16,391 bases of DNA from a virus (IMGVR_UViG_641736216_000007), one strand, 5' to 3'; shown: positions 1-9,610, counted from the stretch's first letter. The notes: generated from the sequence alone by a model not told the origin. Numbers and translations are program-made.

Positions 1-1723
1 ATTTTTTTATACCAAGATCTTTATCATCCCAATCATAATATACCTTACCATTAGGCTTAATTATTAAGTCGTAGTATATTATAGTGTTTCCTACCTCAAA
101 AGAAGAATATTCAAGTCCTTTATGGTATTGTATCTTAAACCCATCTATTAATCTTATAAATTCAAAGTCTTGGCAAATATCGCTACCCCCAGAATAAATC
201 ATTTTATAATTATTATTATTAAATAAGCTAAGACCTATACCATCCAAAATTTTTAAATTAGATTTAGTTGTATATCTATAGTCAACTCTAAAATTTAAAC
301 TAATATCTTTAAATTTACTAAATCGATCTATAACATTCGATACATTTGAATCAGTCGTTAAAACACTATTTATTCTTACTTCCTTTTTTATATCAGTAAA
401 ATAACTATCTTCCGCTAAATTATCTAAAATCACATTATCATGTCTGCTTATACTCACACCTTTTATTCTATCTTCTGTATTAATATAATTAATAGTATCT
501 AATATCCTATTTTTAGGTAATGTAGTATTTATATAGACAACTTTATCATTATCTATTAGATTGATTAATTCTTTTAATGTGTCTAAGTCAGCAAAAGGTT
601 CTCCTCCAGTAAAAACAAAACTCTTAAATCCTTTTTTATTTAACATACTTATAGACTTTTTAATATTTTTAATATTAGGTCTATCTTTTTTATATTCCCT
701 TTTTGATGTACAAAACTCACAGTTATTTACACAATCAGAAGGCACAAATACCGTTACAGAAATATCCTCTCTTCCTTTTCTAAAGCTTATATTCAGTTTA
801 TCCATGAAGGTATCCAAATCACACCCAGCAGAAGAAGGATGCCCTCCTCCATTAAAGTTTAGTTTAGCTATTTCACTTAAATCAATATCTTTATTTGTTC
901 TCAAACTGACATTATTATTTAAGTTATTCAATATAGCTATAAAATCCAAATTATCAAATTTAGTATATAAGAAATGGCCTAAAAGACTTATTTCTCTCCT
1001 ATCATCAACACTTACTATCCCAACATTAAACTCTTGTTGTTTTTTATCTTTTAATAAATTCATTTTTCTCTGTATTAACTTTTCTCCAATTTCATTAAAA
1101 TAGTCTATTCTTCTTTTTGTTTTTAAATTTATCTTAATATTTTCTTCCTCACTAAACAATTCCTTATTATTAGTTATTTTCTCGACAATAGACTTTCTAA
1201 AATCAATTGCTCCCATTTCCTCAAATAAATCATTCAATCTTACAGCTTCAAGATTGTTAGTTTTTGTCCATGAAAAAGTATCCCAATCTTGTACTAATTC
1301 AACAAAATATTTTAATTCTTTAAAATATAAATCTGAGGGTCCAAATATGTCTTCAAAGAGAAGTTTTGTACCACAAGTTGGCTCTCCCTTTCTATCAAAT
1401 AATATAACCTTAGCCCAAAAATATTTATTTAAGTCTAAAGCTGTTTTATGATGATCTATAAGTTTAAACTTTGCTCCTTCTTTTACAACTTCATCTATCT
1501 TTTTAGCAACTTCATTTGATACACTTATATCAACTATATAAGTCATATCAAAATTTAAATATTCTTTTTTATTAATAAAATCTAATACAAACTTGTCTAC
1601 ATTGCTATAATCACATCCAACCGATTTTAAAATATTAATATTATTTAACCCTAAAACAATCTCTGAACTTTCCCCATCCATATCAATATGTTTAAATAAA
1701 CATACTTTAGCTATACTTTCCAT
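1..1723 (-). CDS. DHH/DHHA1-family phosphoesterase fused to a radical SAM domain (3'-partial, at least 574 aa; missing from the ORF track)
   Basis: Manual translation from ATG at 1723 (RBS GGGAGG at about 1733-1738) is open to the window edge. DHH motifs: H12-I-D-M-D-G17, YIVDIS, D90-H-H92, QDWDTFSW, DHHA1 motif VSLRT...NGGGH295. Radical SAM motifs: C331-VNN-C-EF-C338, FTGGEP, INTTL, VSISRH, ending ...IIKPNGKVYYDWDDKDLGIKN. Confidence 0.88.
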   Translation of the reverse strand, partial: MESIAKVCLFKHIDMDGESSEIVLGLNNINILKSVGCDYSNVDKFVLDFINKKEYLNFDMTYIVDISVSNEVAKKIDEVVKEGAKFKLIDHHKTALDLNKYFWAKVILFDRKGEPTCGTKLLFEDIFGPSDLYFKELKYFVELVQDWDTFSWTKTNNLEAVRLNDLFEEMGAIDFRKSIVEKITNNKELFSEEENIKINLKTKRRIDYFNEIGEKLIQRKMNLLKDKKQQEFNVGIVSVDDRREISLLGHFLYTKFDNLDFIAILNNLNNNVSLRTNKDIDLSEIAKLNFNGGGHPSSAGCDLDTFMDKLNISFRKGREDISVTVFVPSDCVNNCEFCTSKREYKKDRPNIKNIKKSISMLNKKGFKSFVFTGGEPFADLDTLKELINLIDNDKVVYINTTLPKNRILDTINYINTEDRIKGVSISRHDNVILDNLAEDSYFTDIKKEVRINSVLTTDSNVSNVIDRFSKFKDISLNFRVDYRYTTKSNLKILDGIGLSLFNNNNYKMIYSGGSDICQDFEFIRLIDGFKIQYHKGLEYSSFEVGNTIIYYDLIIKPNGKVYYDWDDKDLGIKK

Positions 1724-6505: not shown

Positions 6506-6618
6506 AGTTTATCGTCCCCTTTTTTATATTTTATATATAAATACTTTTTCTAATGATATATATTAGATTTTAGGATCAATTCTTATAATGCTTAAATGGA
6601 TTGTTTTTACATAAAAAT

Positions 6619-6645
6619 AAAAGAAGGGGAATTTCCCCTTCTTTT
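6619..6645. terminator. Bidirectional intrinsic terminator closing the central RNA-rich unit
   Basis: Perfect 12-bp stem AAAAGAAGGGGA-ATT-TCCCCTTCTTTT with A/T tracts on both sides. Confidence 0.85.
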
Positions 6646-6648
6646 ACA

Positions 6649-6874
6649 AATAATCTATCATCGCTTTTAATAAATTTATACATTTTATGAACTTTCATTG
6701 TTCTTTTTAACTGGCATCAAATTTAATTTGTAAATTGTAAATTGTTATAATTTAATAAATAGTTATGTGTAAAATGTAATTTATATTCATTATAATTTAA
6801 TTGGTTAGAGTCTTTATGTACTCTGAATTCAAAAGCAGTAAATTACACAAATGATAAAAACAAGATAGATTATT
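6649..6874 (-). ncRNA. Candidate structured RNA downstream of the DIP1984-like gene
   Basis: Perfect 11-bp closing inverted repeat (6649-6659 with 6864-6874), internal TGTAATTTA/TAAATTACA helix, AGAGT/ACTCT and GAAC/GTTC hairpins, three tandem 7-mers at 6725-6745, no ORF. AT-richness weakens the inference. Confidence 0.45.
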
Positions 6875-6920
6875 TTTATATATAAAACATCAATAATTAA
6901 TTATTAATGTGATATAGCTA

Positions 6921-7442
6921 TTAAATTTCTAAATAGGTATCACTATTCATTTTACTTATTAGAGACTCAAGTGTATTAATTTTTTTTCTTAATTCATTTT
7001 TCCTCTCTATCATATTATCTCTATCAAAATTTAAAGTTTTTATTTCCATATAAAAAGAAGATGCATATTGAGTATCTACTTTTCTATGTTTTTTCTCTTT
7101 ATCTAATGAAGATAATTTATCAAGAACACTTAAATAGTTTCTATATTCTTTTAATTTTGTTAAGGCGCTTGATATAGTATCTTCATCACTTATTTTTGTT
7201 TTATTATTAGTATTTTGCAGTAAATTTTTATATTTAACAACATCCTCTGTCATTTCATTATATTCATTCAGTTCTTCATCGAATGAATATTCTGGAGTCA
7301 TTTGAGTTAACTCATTTTTCCCTTGAATAAAGGTAGAATGTTTAATTACAATACTATTGTCTAAAAGCTCTCTTCGCTTATTATATAAATCATTTTCTTT
7401 ATCGCTTATAAGTAATCTTAATTCGTTTAAATTTAATTTCAT
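6921..7442 (-). CDS. DIP1984/DUF6847-like coiled-coil protein (tentative)
   Basis: 173-aa helical protein with RBS AGGAGG. The pattern MKLNLNELRLL..., LQNTNNKT, TISSAL and C-terminal LNFDRD...LRKKINTLESLISKMNSDTYLEI resembles the DIP1984 family layout; recognised by eye, needs HMM confirmation. Confidence 0.55.
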   Translation of the reverse strand: MKLNLNELRLLISDKENDLYNKRRELLDNSIVIKHSTFIQGKNELTQMTPEYSFDEELNEYNEMTEDVVKYKNLLQNTNNKTKISDEDTISSALTKLKEYRNYLSVLDKLSSLDKEKKHRKVDTQYASSFYMEIKTLNFDRDNMIERKNELRKKINTLESLISKMNSDTYLEI

Positions 7443-7461
7443 TAAATTTACCTCCTATTGA

Positions 7462-7594
7462 TGGCAAGCAAGGGATTTGAACCCTTATATATACAACTTC
7501 CTTGATTAAAAGCTTTTAGTAGTAAAATTTTCAAAGGAATCGAACCCTTAAGTTTTCCAAAAGGAAAGTTGTAAATAGATACCTTCAGCCTGCC
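7462..7594 (-). ncRNA. 133-nt tRNA-like RNA with acceptor stem, two T-arms and no anticodon arm
   Basis: Acceptor stem GGCAGGC (7594-7588)/GCTTGCC (7469-7463) plus discriminator A; outer T-arm AAGGG-TTCAAAT-CCCTT (7486-7470); 12-bp helix with one bulge (7573-7561 with 7503-7492); inner T-arm AAGGG-TTCGATT-CCTTT (7549-7533). Confidence 0.75.
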
Positions 7595-7604
7595 AAATAA
7601 AATT

Positions 7605-7958
7605 TTATATTTTATTAAAGCTTTCATTACATTTTTCACATATATCTCCATATATACCTTTGCTTACATTATCTCCATATATGACATCACTACAAATTGT
7701 ACATCTATGTACAATTGGAAGCTCTACATTTATCGCTTCTTCAAGAATAATCTCACTTAATATAGATTCTGCTACGCTTAGAGAACTTGTTTTTACTGGA
7801 AAATATTCTTCAGTATTGTGGTTCTTTATATCATCAACACTGGTTAGATATATAGAATCATTAATTTCAAGTAAAACTTTTTTATCTTCCTCATTCTTAT
7901 TATATGAACTAAGTCTTTTCATTAAAAACCTAACAACTATAGTAAGTATTCTATCCAA
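7605..7958 (-). CDS. Hypothetical protein with C-terminal CxxC...CxxC (putative Zn ribbon)
   Basis: 117 aa, TTG start with GGAAGGGTGA upstream; CTIC and CEKC motifs near the C-terminus. Confidence 0.7.
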   Translation of the reverse strand: MDRILTIVVRFLMKRLSSYNKNEEDKKVLLEINDSIYLTSVDDIKNHNTEEYFPVKTSSLSVAESILSEIILEEAINVELPIVHRCTICSDVIYGDNVSKGIYGDICEKCNESFNKI

Positions 7959-7989
7959 AAATAAGTCACCCTTCCATACACTAATTTTT

Positions 7990-8257
7990 TATATTTGGTT
8001 ATTCTGTTAATCCAGACATGGTATCGAGCTTCTACCATAGCAAGTTTTTTACAAGTTTTCTCTTGAAGCTCCTACAGTAAAAAATATTTTTTATTAATAT
8101 TCTTTTTGCACGATTAAGGATTTATTCCTTTTCCAAATATGTTTGGATTTAATGTACTTTAAAGATGTAATTTATTTCTACTCGGATTTTTGTGAGAAAT
8201 ATTTGTAGTTTTATTTACATTATTAAATTTACATAGGTAGAAGAAGCTATCTTCTTC
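7990..8257 (-). ncRNA. Candidate structured RNA downstream of tRNA(CAU)
   Basis: ORF-free on the minus strand. Hairpins GAAGAAG/CTTCTTC, ATTTCT/AGAAAT, TCCAAA/TTTGGA, AAGGA/TCCTT; pseudoknot-type pairing of GAGCTTC (8071-8065) with GAAGCTC (8032-8026), which lies in the loop of the ATGGTA/TACCAT hairpin (8038-8018). Boundaries uncertain. Confidence 0.4.
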
Positions 8258-8258
8258 A

Positions 8259-8331
8259 TTGCAGGAGAGGGATTCGAACCCTCAACTTTTTGGTAATGAG
8301 CCAAATTTGCTACCATTTGCATTATCCTGCT
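8259..8331 (-). tRNA. tRNA with CAU anticodon (Met/fMet-like, atypical), no encoded CCA
   Basis: AGCAGGA-TA-ATGC-AAATGGTA-GCAA-A-TTTGG-CTCATTA-CCAAA-AAGTT-GAGGG-TTCGAAT-CCCTC-TCCTGCA-A: full 73-nt cloverleaf with A1.A72 mismatch, A10.A25 mismatch and U37. Confidence 0.85.
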
Positions 8332-8984
8332 ATAATGCTATTGTGCCTTGGCCAAAGGACTTATCCAATAGCAATACTCATACTATATAGTTAAACTAAT
8401 AGCTTGATACTGTTATCGCACTCGTCAATAACATATTTGTTTCATATAATTATATGAGAATTGTCCTACTTATTTGAGCTATGATTAAGCTTAGTAGGTT
8501 CCTTATTAGATAGCAAAAACAACAAACAATCTATCTCAAGCAAATATTAATAAATCGCCAAAACTCCAAACGAATATTTTAATCTACTTTTGTTTTAAAC
8601 TGTAAGGGGAGTTTTTATCCTATAGAGAATTTTTTAGTTGTTATTCTCTTCTTTTTACATCCAGAGAAGTCAAGATGTGTCTTAAAAACCCATGCAAAAG
8701 TATGACTTTTTCTACTTTTTTTTACTTAGTGTTTTAATACTAAAATAGGAAAATATAAAATCAATTCGGTAGAAGTTTGTGTTTCAATAATTACTTTAAA
8801 TTTACTTTAAAACTTTGGTGGAATCACCTCTTTCTTACTACTTAAATTTAATAGCCCCCACCAGCTAAAATATACTCCCAGTATCCTCATATGAATTTAT
8901 GCTTAAGATACTTCTCTTCCTTCTATAACAGCAAGAGAGAATTTATTCCTTTATCTTACATAAAAAGAATCTCTACTCTCCAAC
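8332..8984 (-). ncRNA. Candidate large (~650 nt) multi-helix ncRNA between tRNA genes
   Basis: No ORF in the track; at least 12 helices identified by eye, several with G-C pairs and with G.U pairs that only work on the minus strand (for example 8433-8426 with 8418-8411). Family not identified; boundaries approximate. Confidence 0.65.
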
Positions 8985-9126: not shown

Positions 9127-9198
9127 TCGGAATAATAGGATTCGAACCTATGACCTGAGCACCCCAAATGCTCCGCCTTACCACCTGGCTATATCCCG
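9127..9198 (-). tRNA. tRNA-Pro(UGG), no encoded CCA (followed by CTA)
   Basis: CGGGATA-TA-GCC-AGGTGGTAA-GGC-G-GAGCA-TTTGGGG-TGCTC-AGGTC-ATAGG-TTCGAAT-CCTAT-TATTCCG-A; C1-G72, A73, G35-G36 and G37 fit Pro identity. Confidence 0.92.
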
Positions 9199-9199
9199 A

Positions 9200-9470
9200 A
9201 AATAACTCATCCTTCGTAAGGAACACGAACTTGATCACAAATATACCTGAGATTTACTCTATATTTAATAGTAATAAATCTCAGTTTTAAAATAAAAAAA
9301 TGGTTGCAATTCTATCTTTTAAAAGGGGGAATACATTATCAACAAATTTATAGCTAAACTATTTTTATTATATAAGCAACCATTCATAAATTTTGAGAGA
9401 TAGAATGTCCCTGCTAATTTTATTCTTACTTAAAGTTTACATTTCAGATGAGGTGCTTCACCTTCGTTTT
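9200..9470 (-). ncRNA. Candidate ~270-nt structured RNA with crossed (pseudoknot) helices
   Basis: Two perfect 9-bp pairings in crossed order (9406-9398 with 9317-9309; 9384-9376 with 9307-9299), a perfect 10-bp stem (9284-9275 with 9256-9247), small AGGTG/CACCT and TCCTT/AAGGA hairpins; no ORF. Confidence 0.55.
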
Positions 9471-9491
9471 ATAAAAATTACTTAATAATGA

Positions 9492-9551
9492 TTCCAAAGC
9501 TCTGATTTGAACTGACTATTAACAGTTCTCTCCTACTTGAGAAGCTTCGGT
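9492..9551 (-). pseudogene. Truncated tRNA-like element (60 nt)
   Basis: Acceptor-like stem ACCGAAG/CTTTGGA plus A then TCA, D-like hairpin TCTC-AAGTAG-GAGA, GTTCAAATC T-loop motif with an imperfect T-stem; too short to hold both anticodon and T arms. Confidence 0.5.
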
Positions 9552-9581
9552 ATTTTCCTTTTTCTGTAATTTTATATTCTA

Positions 9582-9610
9582 AATATATCATTTTTTTATT
9601 TTCATGTCAA
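9582..9610 (-). promoter_or_regulatory. sigmaA-type promoter for the RNA cluster
   Basis: TTGACA (9610-9605), 17-nt spacer ending in TGA (extended -10 TGn), TATATT (9587-9582). Confidence 0.8.

What the first reader, a model, noticed from the sequence alone, without database searches (positions are those of the whole stretch)
7462..7594. Dumbbell tRNA mimic: one acceptor stem, two nearly identical T-arms, no anticodon
Seen: a canonical 7-bp acceptor stem and T-arm close the molecule, but the anticodon arm is replaced by a 12-bp helix leading to a second module with its own T-arm (AAGGGTTCGATTCCTTT versus AAGGGTTCAAATCCCTT) and an A/U hairpin. A competing TTTCC-TTTT-GGAAA hairpin overlaps the long helix. 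Established: bacterial YrlA Y RNAs have a circularly permuted tRNA-like domain on a long helix, and tmRNA has an acceptor/T domain without an anticodon but with G3.U70, which is absent here (C3-G70). Inference: two tRNA elbows on one helix could act as a processing signal, a decoy for anticodon nucleases or T-box and synthetase proteins, or a Y-RNA-like adaptor. I know of no described family with this layout.
Basis: partly seen in the sequence, partly recalled or inferred. Interest (0 to 1): 0.8.

Follow-up and report, generated by a model that had tools for sequence, protein, structure and literature searches.

The report
Interrupted tRNA-Arg-like gene, second T-arm
The "dumbbell" is real, but it is best read as a degenerate arginine-tRNA-like gene on a 300-kb Clostridioides difficile megaplasmid whose anticodon loop is split by a 61-base insert carrying a second tRNA T-arm; such odd interrupted tRNA genes were reported in uncultured megaphages, and here one sits in a bacterium that can be grown.

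Summary
On the minus strand, 7594-7462, there is a 7-bp acceptor stem, two canonical T-arms and a long helix. T-loop motifs number 4 in the window against 0.01 expected, and 5 in the whole 300-kb plasmid.

"No anticodon, no described layout" does not hold. After in-silico removal of 61 nt (7561-7501), ARAGORN at default threshold calls a tRNA-Arg(CCU). The outer 5 bp of the "12-bp helix" are the anticodon stem. The rest is the anticodon pairing with the insert's 3' end.

The insert lies at the classical Arg.5Ug group I site (U before it, G at its end). It is too small for a ribozyme, has no BHB motif and no Rfam match. The plasmid encodes no EndA, RtcB, RNA ligase or Ro60.

The closest precedents are the "enigmatic" T-arm-bearing tRNA introns of Lak megaphages and T4 species 1 RNA. 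This scan noted similar interrupted phage tRNA genes on other DNA.

Only three haplotypes exist, all from Clostridioides megaplasmids, so covariation is not significant. Only the acceptor stem and T-arm 2 are robust. No RNA data cover the element.

Most likely it is a non-decoding tRNA-derived unit cut out by RNase P and RNase Z from a 3-kb operon transcript. That cut would create the 5' end of the downstream mRNA.

The parts
7462..7594 (-). Whole 133-nt tRNA-like element (interrupted tRNA-Arg(CCU)-like gene)
   Evidence: Sequence. The MFE is the dumbbell. ARAGORN calls it in intron mode at 80-90% threshold.
7588..7594 (-). Acceptor stem, 5' strand GGCAGGC
   Evidence: Pairs with 7469-7463. 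Base-pair probability 0.95-1.00 in all three haplotypes. C7->U7 keeps a pair with G66.
7572..7587 (-). U8, G9 and a degenerate D region (AAG-GUAUCUA-UUU-A), with no G18G19
   Evidence: The ARAGORN drawing shows 3 weak pairs. Its 3' part can instead pair with the variable region and extend the long helix.
7567..7571 (-). Anticodon stem, 5' strand CAACU
   Evidence: Pairs with AGUUG at 7498-7494. It holds the only pair changed on both sides: C-G, U.G and U-A across the haplotypes.
7562..7566 (-). Anticodon-loop nucleotides 32-36, UUCCU (anticodon CCU at 7564-7562), last base U
   Evidence: Invariant in the three haplotypes.
7501..7561 (-). 61-nt insert in the anticodon loop. It ends in G, and its 3' end pairs with the anticodon.
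   Evidence: ARAGORN intron call. Removing it gives a default-threshold tRNA-Arg(CCU) call. No Rfam family at E<=10. No second copy on the plasmid.
7533..7549 (-). T-arm 1 inside the insert (AAGGG-UUCGAUU-CCUUU)
   Evidence: T-loop motif hit. G.U becomes G-C in the other haplotypes. 18 of 21 nt identical to the variable loop plus T-arm of the neighbouring tRNA-Met. Predicted to be unformed in haplotype ESW1602.
7514..7527 (-). Small A/U hairpin UUUUA-CUAC-UAAAA inside the insert
   Evidence: RNAalifold consensus. An alternative, longer A/U hairpin is possible. No informative variation.
7499..7500 (-). Anticodon-loop nucleotides 37-38 (GA; GG in ESW1602)
7494..7498 (-). Anticodon stem, 3' strand AGUUG
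7487..7493 (-). Variable region UAUAUAU: 7 nt here, 9 nt in haplotype L128
   Evidence: Unusually long for a class I tRNA.
7470..7486 (-). T-arm 2 (AAGGG-UUCAAAU-CCCUU)
   Evidence: Rfam tRNA local hit of 13.8 bits. T-loop motif. Invariant in all haplotypes.
7462..7469 (-). Acceptor 3' strand GCUUGCC plus discriminator A. No CCA; the trailer is UCAAU.
   Evidence: Invariant in all haplotypes.
7440..7456 (-). Shine-Dalgarno AGGAGG (7456-7451), 5 nt after the discriminator, and the ATG (7442-7440) of the 173-aa DUF6847-like ORF
   Evidence: 100% conserved in all haplotypes.
9582..9610 (-). Promoter-like site of the roughly 3-kb transcription unit (TTGACA-17-TATATT with TG)
   Evidence: 11 of 12 matches.
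6617..6647 (-). Intrinsic terminator that ends the unit
   Evidence: 14-bp stem and a T run. No other minus-strand terminator lies between 9610 and 6647.

Best explanation
The element is a tRNA-derived gene on the pCDBI1-type 300-kb megaplasmid of Clostridioides difficile. Its frame is a tRNA-Arg(CCU)-like molecule: acceptor stem, weak D region, 5-bp anticodon stem, 7-nt variable region, canonical T-arm, discriminator A and no CCA.

Its anticodon loop is split after nucleotide 36 by a 61-nt insert. The insert carries a second, tRNA-derived T-arm, and its 3' end pairs with the anticodon. This extends the anticodon stem into the long rod of the 'dumbbell'.

The element lies inside a roughly 3-kb polycistronic transcript together with tRNA-Pro and tRNA-Met. 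I infer the following steps.
- The conserved acceptor/T-arm 2 minihelix is recognised by host RNase P at the 5' side of G1.
- RNase Z cuts after A73, as the gene is CCA-less and U follows the discriminator.
- This releases a roughly 133-nt tRNA-like RNA.
- It also leaves the downstream 173-aa gene with a 5' end only 5 nt ahead of its strong Shine-Dalgarno sequence.

The released RNA probably cannot decode. Its anticodon is buried in a helix, the D arm lacks G18G19, and the variable region is 7-9 nt.

Shown: the anatomy, the reconstitution of a tRNA by excision, the operon context and the conservation pattern. Inferred: transcription of this segment, RNase P/Z cleavage, and lack of decoding.
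For: 1. Identity as an interrupted tRNA.
- ARAGORN in intron mode calls tRNA-Arg(CCU) with a 61-nt intron.
- After excision it passes the default threshold.
- Only 2 loci in the 300-kb plasmid pass that test, and the other lacks a T-loop motif.
- 1.8% of shuffles pass it.
- A covariance model of the element aligns ordinary tRNAs end to end with the inner module deleted. The plasmid's own tRNA-Met scores 21.6 bits.

2. Context.
- One promoter-like site at 9610-9582 and one terminator at 6647-6617, with no minus-strand terminator between them.
- An RNA-seq library holds contigs from four other parts of this unit.
- tRNA-Pro is likewise followed within 8 nt by a Shine-Dalgarno sequence and a small ORF.
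- AGGAGG starts 5 nt after this element's discriminator.

3. Conservation.
- T-arm 2, the 3' acceptor strand, the discriminator, the trailer and the SD (7486-7443) are invariant in all haplotypes. All 10-13 variable sites lie upstream of them.
- The acceptor stem and T-arm 2 have pair probability 0.85-1.0 in every haplotype, while the interior refolds in one.
- Changes in tRNA-defined stems keep pairing: C7U; C27-G43 to U.G to U-A; T1 G.U to G-C.

4. No splicing toolkit was found on the replicon: EndA, RtcB and the two RNA ligase families gave no hit.

5. Established knowledge. tRNA-like 't-elements' direct RNase P/Z cleavage of mRNAs in plant mitochondria (PMC1920247). That RNase Z of Bacillota processes CCA-less precursors is from my own knowledge.
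Against: - No RNA data cover the element itself. The one small RNA library with this plasmid has no contig on it, nor on the two true tRNAs.
- Only three haplotypes exist, and covariation is not significant: 334 of 500 shuffles reach the observed score.
- The element diverges at 7.5-9.6%, as fast as its flanks. Much of it may therefore be drifting.
- The ESW1602 haplotype is predicted to abandon the dumbbell.
- The splice position, and so the anticodon, is not unique. Other cuts give CCG, CAG or AAG loops.
- A processing role is hard to separate from a harmless pseudogene that is still cut.
- The PF09511 ligase search had no positive control.
Confidence: 0.45

Rival explanations
1. A genuine intron-containing tRNA gene. 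The 61-nt T-arm-bearing insert is removed by an undescribed, non-group-I pathway, as suspected for Lak megaphage tRNA introns. A functional tRNA-Arg(CCU) results and reads AGG codons of the megaplasmid.
For: - Excision gives a default-threshold tRNA-Arg(CCU) with U33, CCU and G37.
- The insert sits at the classical Arg.5Ug site with U before it and G at its end.
- Loop nucleotides 32-37 are invariant.
- AGG makes up 14.5% of Arg codons, 4.4 per 1000, on the plasmid.
- T-arm-bearing inserts in phage tRNA anticodon loops are published and conserved.
Against: - The spliced product would be a poor tRNA: 3 weak D-stem pairs, no G18G19, and a 7-nt variable region that is 9 nt in L128.
- There is no ribozyme core, no BHB motif and no small-ribozyme hit.
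- There is no EndA, RtcB or RNA ligase on the plasmid.
- The insert has no acceptor stem of its own, so RNase P/Z could not excise it.
- The U/G rule is met by chance in about 40% of cases over 8 positions.
Confidence: 0.12
2. A decaying tRNA pseudogene with no function. An old tRNA-Arg gene was broken by a partial duplication or recombination with another tRNA gene of the cluster, and it now drifts.
For: - Its divergence equals that of the flanks.
- Position 64 is hypervariable (A, G and U), and the AT linker varies in length.
- The interior refolds in one haplotype.
- T-arm 1 resembles the variable loop plus T-arm of tRNA-Met and T-arm 2.
- The D arm is degenerate.
- Covariation is not significant.
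Against: - All changes in tRNA-defined stems keep pairing, including one two-step compensatory change.
- The 3' minihelix half is invariant while 10-13 sites vary upstream of it.
- The insert is retained in all haplotypes.
- The discriminator-to-SD distance (5 nt here, 8 nt at tRNA-Pro) is of the same short order as at tRNA-Pro.
Confidence: 0.3
3. A purpose-built two-elbow tRNA mimic. It would act as a decoy for tRNA-targeting nucleases or toxins, or as a Y-RNA-like adaptor that presents two T-loop elbows on one rod.
For: - Two full T-loop consensus arms sit at opposite ends of an approximately 18-bp rod in the MFE of two haplotypes.
- The inner module can be read as a circularly permuted acceptor/T-arm stack.
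- Acceptor-closed units with two T-arms recur in phage tRNA arrays.
Against: - No Ro60/TROVE gene on the replicon.
- No YrlA or tmRNA match.
- T-arm 1 is predicted to be unformed in ESW1602.
- No neighbouring gene points to tRNA biology.
- No test of binding was possible.
Confidence: 0.08

Closest known systems
'Enigmatic' introns of Lak megaphage tRNA genes (Devoto et al. 2019, PMC6784885, Table S6)
   Same: - The host gene is a tRNA gene of a very large, AT-rich mobile replicon, interrupted in the anticodon loop.
- The insert is under 100 nt and has no Rfam match.
- The Lak tRNA-Tyr(GTA) insert carries its own T-arm, so the gene has two T-arms inside one acceptor closure.
- The removal mechanism is unknown.
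   Different: - The Lak inserts are longer (52-93 nt shown), and the tRNA-Tyr one has its own acceptor-like stem. The insert here has only a T-arm and a small hairpin.
- The host tRNA here is degenerate.
- The replicon is a Clostridioides megaplasmid whose phage nature is not established.
- There is no sequence similarity.
[quoted passage not shown]
   Same: Same isoacceptor and same insertion point after the fifth loop nucleotide. U precedes the insert and G ends it.
   Different: The insert is 61 nt, far shorter than the group I introns I know of. It has no P3-P9 core and no RF00028 hit even at E<=10. The P1-like hairpin leaves the splice-site U unpaired rather than in a U.G pair.
Bacteriophage T4 species 1 RNA (rnaC), a 139-nt stable RNA in the T4 tRNA cluster
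   Same: An RNA of about 135-140 nt encoded among phage tRNA genes. It has a canonical T-arm next to a terminal closing stem and long extra helices, and no contiguous anticodon loop. Its function is, to my knowledge, still unknown.
   Different: It has one T-arm, not two. There is no sequence or model similarity: model R1 does not hit rnaC. It cannot be read as an interrupted tRNA.
t-elements of plant mitochondria and mitochondrial tRNA punctuation (PMC1920247)
   Same: tRNA-like structures embedded in polycistronic transcripts. Cleavage by RNase P and RNase Z creates mRNA ends. This is the mechanism I propose here.
   Different: They occur in organelles rather than in a bacterial plasmid. Cleavage has not been shown here.
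Bacterial Y RNA YrlA and the tRNA-like domain of tmRNA
   Same: An acceptor/T-arm module without a usable anticodon, carried on a longer RNA.
   Different: No Rfam match, no Ro60/TROVE gene, no G3.U70 and no tag reading frame.

Membership tests
Canonical tRNA (Rfam RF00005 / ARAGORN) | 7-bp acceptor stem with a discriminator, next to a T-arm with the GGUUCRANYCC loop | tested here: met
Canonical tRNA (Rfam RF00005 / ARAGORN) | Contiguous anticodon stem with a 7-nt loop | tested here: not met
   Present only after 61 nt are removed in silico.
Canonical tRNA (Rfam RF00005 / ARAGORN) | D arm with 3-4 pairs and G18G19 | tested here: not met
   Three weak pairs (A-U, A-U, G.U), and the loop GUAUCUA has no GG.
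Canonical tRNA (Rfam RF00005 / ARAGORN) | Score above the family threshold on the genomic sequence | tested here: not met
   No call at gathering score or at the ARAGORN default. A 13.8-bit fragment only.
Non-group-I ('enigmatic') introns of large-phage tRNA genes | tRNA frame interrupted in the anticodon loop by a short insert without a ribozyme core | tested here: met
Non-group-I ('enigmatic') introns of large-phage tRNA genes | Insert carries tRNA-like parts (a T-arm) | tested here: met
   T-arm 1. The Lak tRNA-Tyr insert has one as well.
Non-group-I ('enigmatic') introns of large-phage tRNA genes | Insert absent from the mature RNA | not testable with these tools
   No RNA run holds the element.
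Non-group-I ('enigmatic') introns of large-phage tRNA genes | Replicon is a large phage | tested here: inconclusive
   A 300.9-kb circular record annotated as a plasmid. The papers call it a megaplasmid or extrachromosomal DNA carrying CRISPR arrays. No structural phage genes were examined.
Group I intron (Arg.5Ug class) | Insertion after loop nucleotide 5, with U at -1 and G at omega | tested here: met
   UUCCU/...G/GA. About 40% is expected by chance over the 8 positions.
Group I intron (Arg.5Ug class) | Catalytic core P3-P9 | tested here: not met
   Only 61 nt, and no Intron_gpI hit at E<=10.
Archaeal/eukaryal protein-spliced tRNA intron | Bulge-helix-bulge motif at the junctions, plus a splicing endonuclease and a ligase | tested here: not met
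   Both junctions lie in a continuous helix. No PF01974 or PF01139 on the plasmid. The host chromosome was not searchable.
YrlA-type bacterial Y RNA | Match to the Rfam model, and a Ro60/Rsr (TROVE) gene nearby | tested here: not met
   No hit. No PF05731 on either plasmid, with positive controls ringing.
tmRNA | tRNA-like domain with G3.U70, a tag ORF, and a model match | tested here: not met
   C3-G70. ARAGORN -m and Rfam find nothing.
tRNA-like mRNA processing signal (t-element type) | An acceptor/T-arm minihelix abutting an mRNA end inside a polycistronic unit | tested here: met
   SD starts 5 nt after the discriminator, with a single promoter and terminator.
tRNA-like mRNA processing signal (t-element type) | Cleavage by RNase P and RNase Z at its borders | not testable with these tools
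   Needs end mapping or in vitro cleavage.

The most novel reading that the evidence does not exclude
The 61-nt T-arm-bearing insert is a working member of an undescribed class of bacterial or phage tRNA introns, with no ribozyme and no BHB motif. It would be removed with the help of the tRNA-processing machinery that its T-arm recruits, yielding a functional tRNA-Arg(CCU). Because C. difficile strains with this megaplasmid can be grown and manipulated, the 'enigmatic phage tRNA intron' problem raised by the uncultured Lak megaphages would become directly testable.
Probability: 0.12. Interest if true: 0.85.

Novelty: new variant of a known kind. Interest (0 to 1): 0.55.

Why it matters
Interrupted tRNA genes with tRNA-like inserts were reported in uncultured Lak megaphages in 2019 as 'enigmatic introns'. 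To my knowledge, nobody has shown how they are processed or whether they work.

This locus is a compact example on a replicon of a cultivable, genetically tractable bacterium. A northern blot, tRNA sequencing and end mapping could settle three questions: whether such units are spliced, whether they are merely excised as tRNA-like RNAs, and whether they serve as punctuation for mRNA processing.

It also shows that default tRNA finders miss a third tRNA-derived gene in this plasmid's RNA-rich operon. Units with two T-arms inside one acceptor closure are common in viral contigs.

Tried and rejected
**Rfam and ARAGORN**
- Rfam at gathering and at E<=10: no tmRNA, YrlA, group I or small ribozyme. 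Only a T-arm fragment.
- ARAGORN default, tmRNA and mitochondrial modes: nothing.
- At 70-80% thresholds ARAGORN gives many false calls (329 per plasmid at 80%), so only the excision-then-default test was used.

**Coding reading**
- The overlapping 67-codon ORF has a stop and a frameshift in L128.

**Homologue searches**
- blastn against phages: none.
- Plasmids: only the Clostridioides megaplasmids.
- Neighbour proteins in 5.8 billion proteins: only Clostridioides, 4 clusters and 1 cluster.
- Related-locus scan of viral contigs: one spurious hit, L125.
- T-arm-pair patterns in genome, viral and metagenome contigs: tandem tRNAs, or unrelated two-T-arm units.

**Origin of the insert**
- Mobile mini-element: no second copy on the plasmid.
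- Duplication of the element's own 3' half: only the T-arm aligns (p about 0.03). The rest does not.

**Enzymes on the plasmid**
- TROVE, CCA-adding enzyme, RtcB, EndA and two RNA ligase families: none found.
- The PF09511 search had no positive control.

**Covariation and RNA evidence**
- Covariation on 3 haplotypes is not significant.
- Eight runs were laid. Only one tiny library contains the plasmid, and it lacks the element.
- The host chromosome could not be searched.

Full report
**Where it is**

The window matches a C. difficile BI1 circular record of 300,869 bp, annotated as a plasmid (NC_017177.1). Window 6900-8400 is 100% identical to record 41365-42865. The literature calls this record a megaplasmid or ~300-kb extrachromosomal DNA with CRISPR arrays.

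The element reads on the minus strand, from 7594 to 7462. It lies between a 117-aa ORF (7958-7605) and a 173-aa ORF with a weak DUF6847 match (7442-6921).

A strong promoter-like site (9610-9582; 11 of 12 matches plus TG) and a 14-bp terminator (6647-6617) bracket about 3 kb. No other minus-strand terminator lies between them. This unit also holds tRNA-Pro(UGG), tRNA-Met(CAU) and several ORF-free blocks.

Yes.
- The 7-bp acceptor stem, the two T-arms and the long helix are all present.
- The T-loop consensus GGTTCRANYCC occurs four times in the window against 0.01 expected. It occurs five times in the whole plasmid.
- The minus-strand fold has z = -3.1, and its MFE is the dumbbell.
- With T-arm 2 and the 3' strand held fixed, only 0.9% of dinucleotide shuffles of the upstream 109 nt supply a 7-bp partner.
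- A 67-codon ORF overlaps the element, but it is interrupted in one haplotype.

**What it is**

Standard tools do not call the element. Rfam at E<=10 sees only T-arm 2, at 13.8 bits.

ARAGORN with introns allowed and a 90% or 80% threshold calls a tRNA-Arg(CCU) with a 61-nt insert after anticodon nucleotide 36. When I removed 7561-7501 in silico, ARAGORN called tRNA-Arg(CCU) at its default threshold.

This is not a trivial result of a permissive search.
- Of eight intron-mode calls on the plasmid, only this one and one other pass after excision. The other has no T-loop motif.
- 1.8% of shuffles pass.
- A covariance model built from the element aligns ordinary tRNAs end to end with the inner module deleted. 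It scores the plasmid's own tRNA-Met at 21.6 bits and a T4 tRNA-Leu at 17.7 bits.

The first is the 5-bp anticodon stem CAACU/AGUUG. The second is the loop and anticodon pairing with the 3' end of the insert.

The frame is nevertheless a poor tRNA.
- The D stem has three weak pairs.
- There is no G18G19.
- The variable region is 7 nt, and 9 nt in one haplotype.
- The cut site is not unique. Other cuts would give CCG, CAG or AAG loops. Among the cuts that leave a purine at position 37, only the CCU cut has U before the insert and G at its end.

**The insert**

It sits at the site known as Arg.5Ug, one of the four classical group I intron sites in bacterial tRNAs. At 61 nt it cannot hold a group I core, and it gives no Intron_gpI or small-ribozyme hit.

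Both junctions lie inside a continuous helix, so there is no bulge-helix-bulge motif. The plasmid encodes no EndA, RtcB, Rnl1/Rnl2-type ligase, CCA-adding enzyme or Ro60. One ligase search lacked a positive control.

There is no second copy of the insert on the plasmid. Its T-arm is tRNA-derived:
- 18 of 21 nt identical to the variable loop plus T-arm of the neighbouring tRNA-Met;
- 16 of 19 nt identical to T-arm 2;
- the rest of the insert matches nothing.

**Relatives and selection**

Only Clostridioides replicons of 264-306 kb carry the locus. They give three haplotypes.

The element differs by 7.5-9.6% between haplotypes, like its flanks. Formal covariation is not significant: one double change, and 334 of 500 shuffles reach the observed score.

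Still, every change in a stem defined by the tRNA model keeps pairing:
- C7-G66 becomes U.G;
- C27-G43 becomes U.G and then U-A;
- the T1 G.U becomes G-C.

All variable sites lie upstream of 7486. T-arm 2, the 3' acceptor strand, the discriminator, the trailer and the SD are invariant.

Thermodynamic modelling agrees. The acceptor stem and T-arm 2 are stable in all three haplotypes. In ESW1602 an alternative helix (7538-7531 with 7505-7498) is favoured by 2.5 kcal/mol and displaces T-arm 1 and the anticodon stem. Five of the ten ESW1602 substitutions fall in this helix. The interior is therefore not robustly conserved.

**Expression**

One small RNA-seq library contains exact contigs from 6661-6810, 7629-7796, 8580-8732 and 9326-9561. 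The contigs show these stretches in an RNA library, which suggests but does not prove that the unit is transcribed. The library has nothing on the element or on the two true tRNAs. No other RNA run holds the plasmid. Neither the existence nor the ends of a 133-nt RNA could be tested.

**Mechanism**

I commit to the following, with confidence about 0.45. The conserved acceptor/T-arm 2 minihelix acts as an RNase P/RNase Z site. This releases a non-decoding tRNA-like RNA and gives the downstream gene a 5' end 5 nt before AGGAGG. The tRNA-Pro unit has the same architecture, followed within 8 nt by an SD and a small ORF.

Rivals:
- a drifting pseudogene (0.30), which may still be cut;
- a truly spliced tRNA-Arg(CCU) (0.12);
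- a two-elbow decoy or adaptor (0.08).

**Comparison with known things**

The closest published case is the set of 'enigmatic' introns of Lak megaphage tRNAs. Table S6 of that paper shows a tRNA-Tyr(GTA) with a 93-nt anticodon-loop insert that has its own T-arm and no Rfam hit.

T4 species 1 RNA is a similar-sized tRNA-cluster RNA with one T-arm and a terminal closing stem.

Earlier notes of this scan describe interrupted phage tRNA genes with tRNA-shaped inserts on other genomes. I did not test those. I only checked the paper they cite.

My own pattern scans show that two T-arms 35-60 nt apart are frequent in viral and metagenome contigs. A minority of them sit inside one acceptor closure.

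**Verdict**

The feature is real. It is a new variant of a known but unexplained kind. The evidence for function is thin. Its value lies mainly in offering a cultivable system for an open question.

Noticed in passing
window 9492-9551 (-): A 60-nt unit at the start of the operon. It has a 7-bp acceptor-like closure (CCGAAGC/GCUUUGG), a D-like hairpin and an AACUG/CAGUU stem-loop, but no clear T-arm. By eye, the closure holds.
   Followed up: partly
window 8333-8983, 7959-8258, 9199-9570, 6646-6920 (-): Four ORF-free blocks in the same transcription unit. None matches an Rfam family even at E<=1; ROOL, GOLLD and similar families were not found. Three of them, plus one stretch inside the 117-aa ORF, are represented by contigs in an RNA-seq library at depths of 10-42.
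   Followed up: partly
L126 (GCA_038756585.1), tRNA-Pro region homologous to window 9127-9198: In this haplotype the tRNA-Pro gene shows 8 gap positions relative to BI1. The 173-aa ORF differs by 38 substitutions, although everything upstream is more than 99% identical. This is a recombination mosaic with a breakpoint near the element.
   Followed up: no
L094:6765-6876 and L094:3873-4002 (IMG/VR contig with at least 13 tRNA genes): Two uncalled tRNA-like units, each with two T-arms inside one 7-bp acceptor closure. The same phage tRNA array holds several further orphan T-arms.
   Followed up: partly
L023, L058, L085, L028 (IMG/VR contigs): Class II (Leu-like) tRNA genes that ARAGORN calls at default threshold only when a 79-123-nt anticodon-loop insert is allowed. 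Each insert contains a T-arm. In L058 the insert looks like a nearly whole nested tRNA.
   Followed up: no
L038:1291-1394 and L052 (two different IMG/VR contigs): A ~104-nt tRNA-like unit with two T-arms that is conserved between two viral contigs. The segment between the arms is variable.
   Followed up: no
whole plasmid (L266-L281): ATA is used at 57 per 1000 codons. The plasmid's tRNA(CAU) may therefore be a lysidine-type tRNA-Ile2 rather than tRNA-Met. This was not tested.
   Followed up: no
window 2-1723 (-): One reading frame joins a DHH/DHHA1 phosphoesterase to a radical SAM domain (Pfam and PHROG hits).
   Followed up: partly
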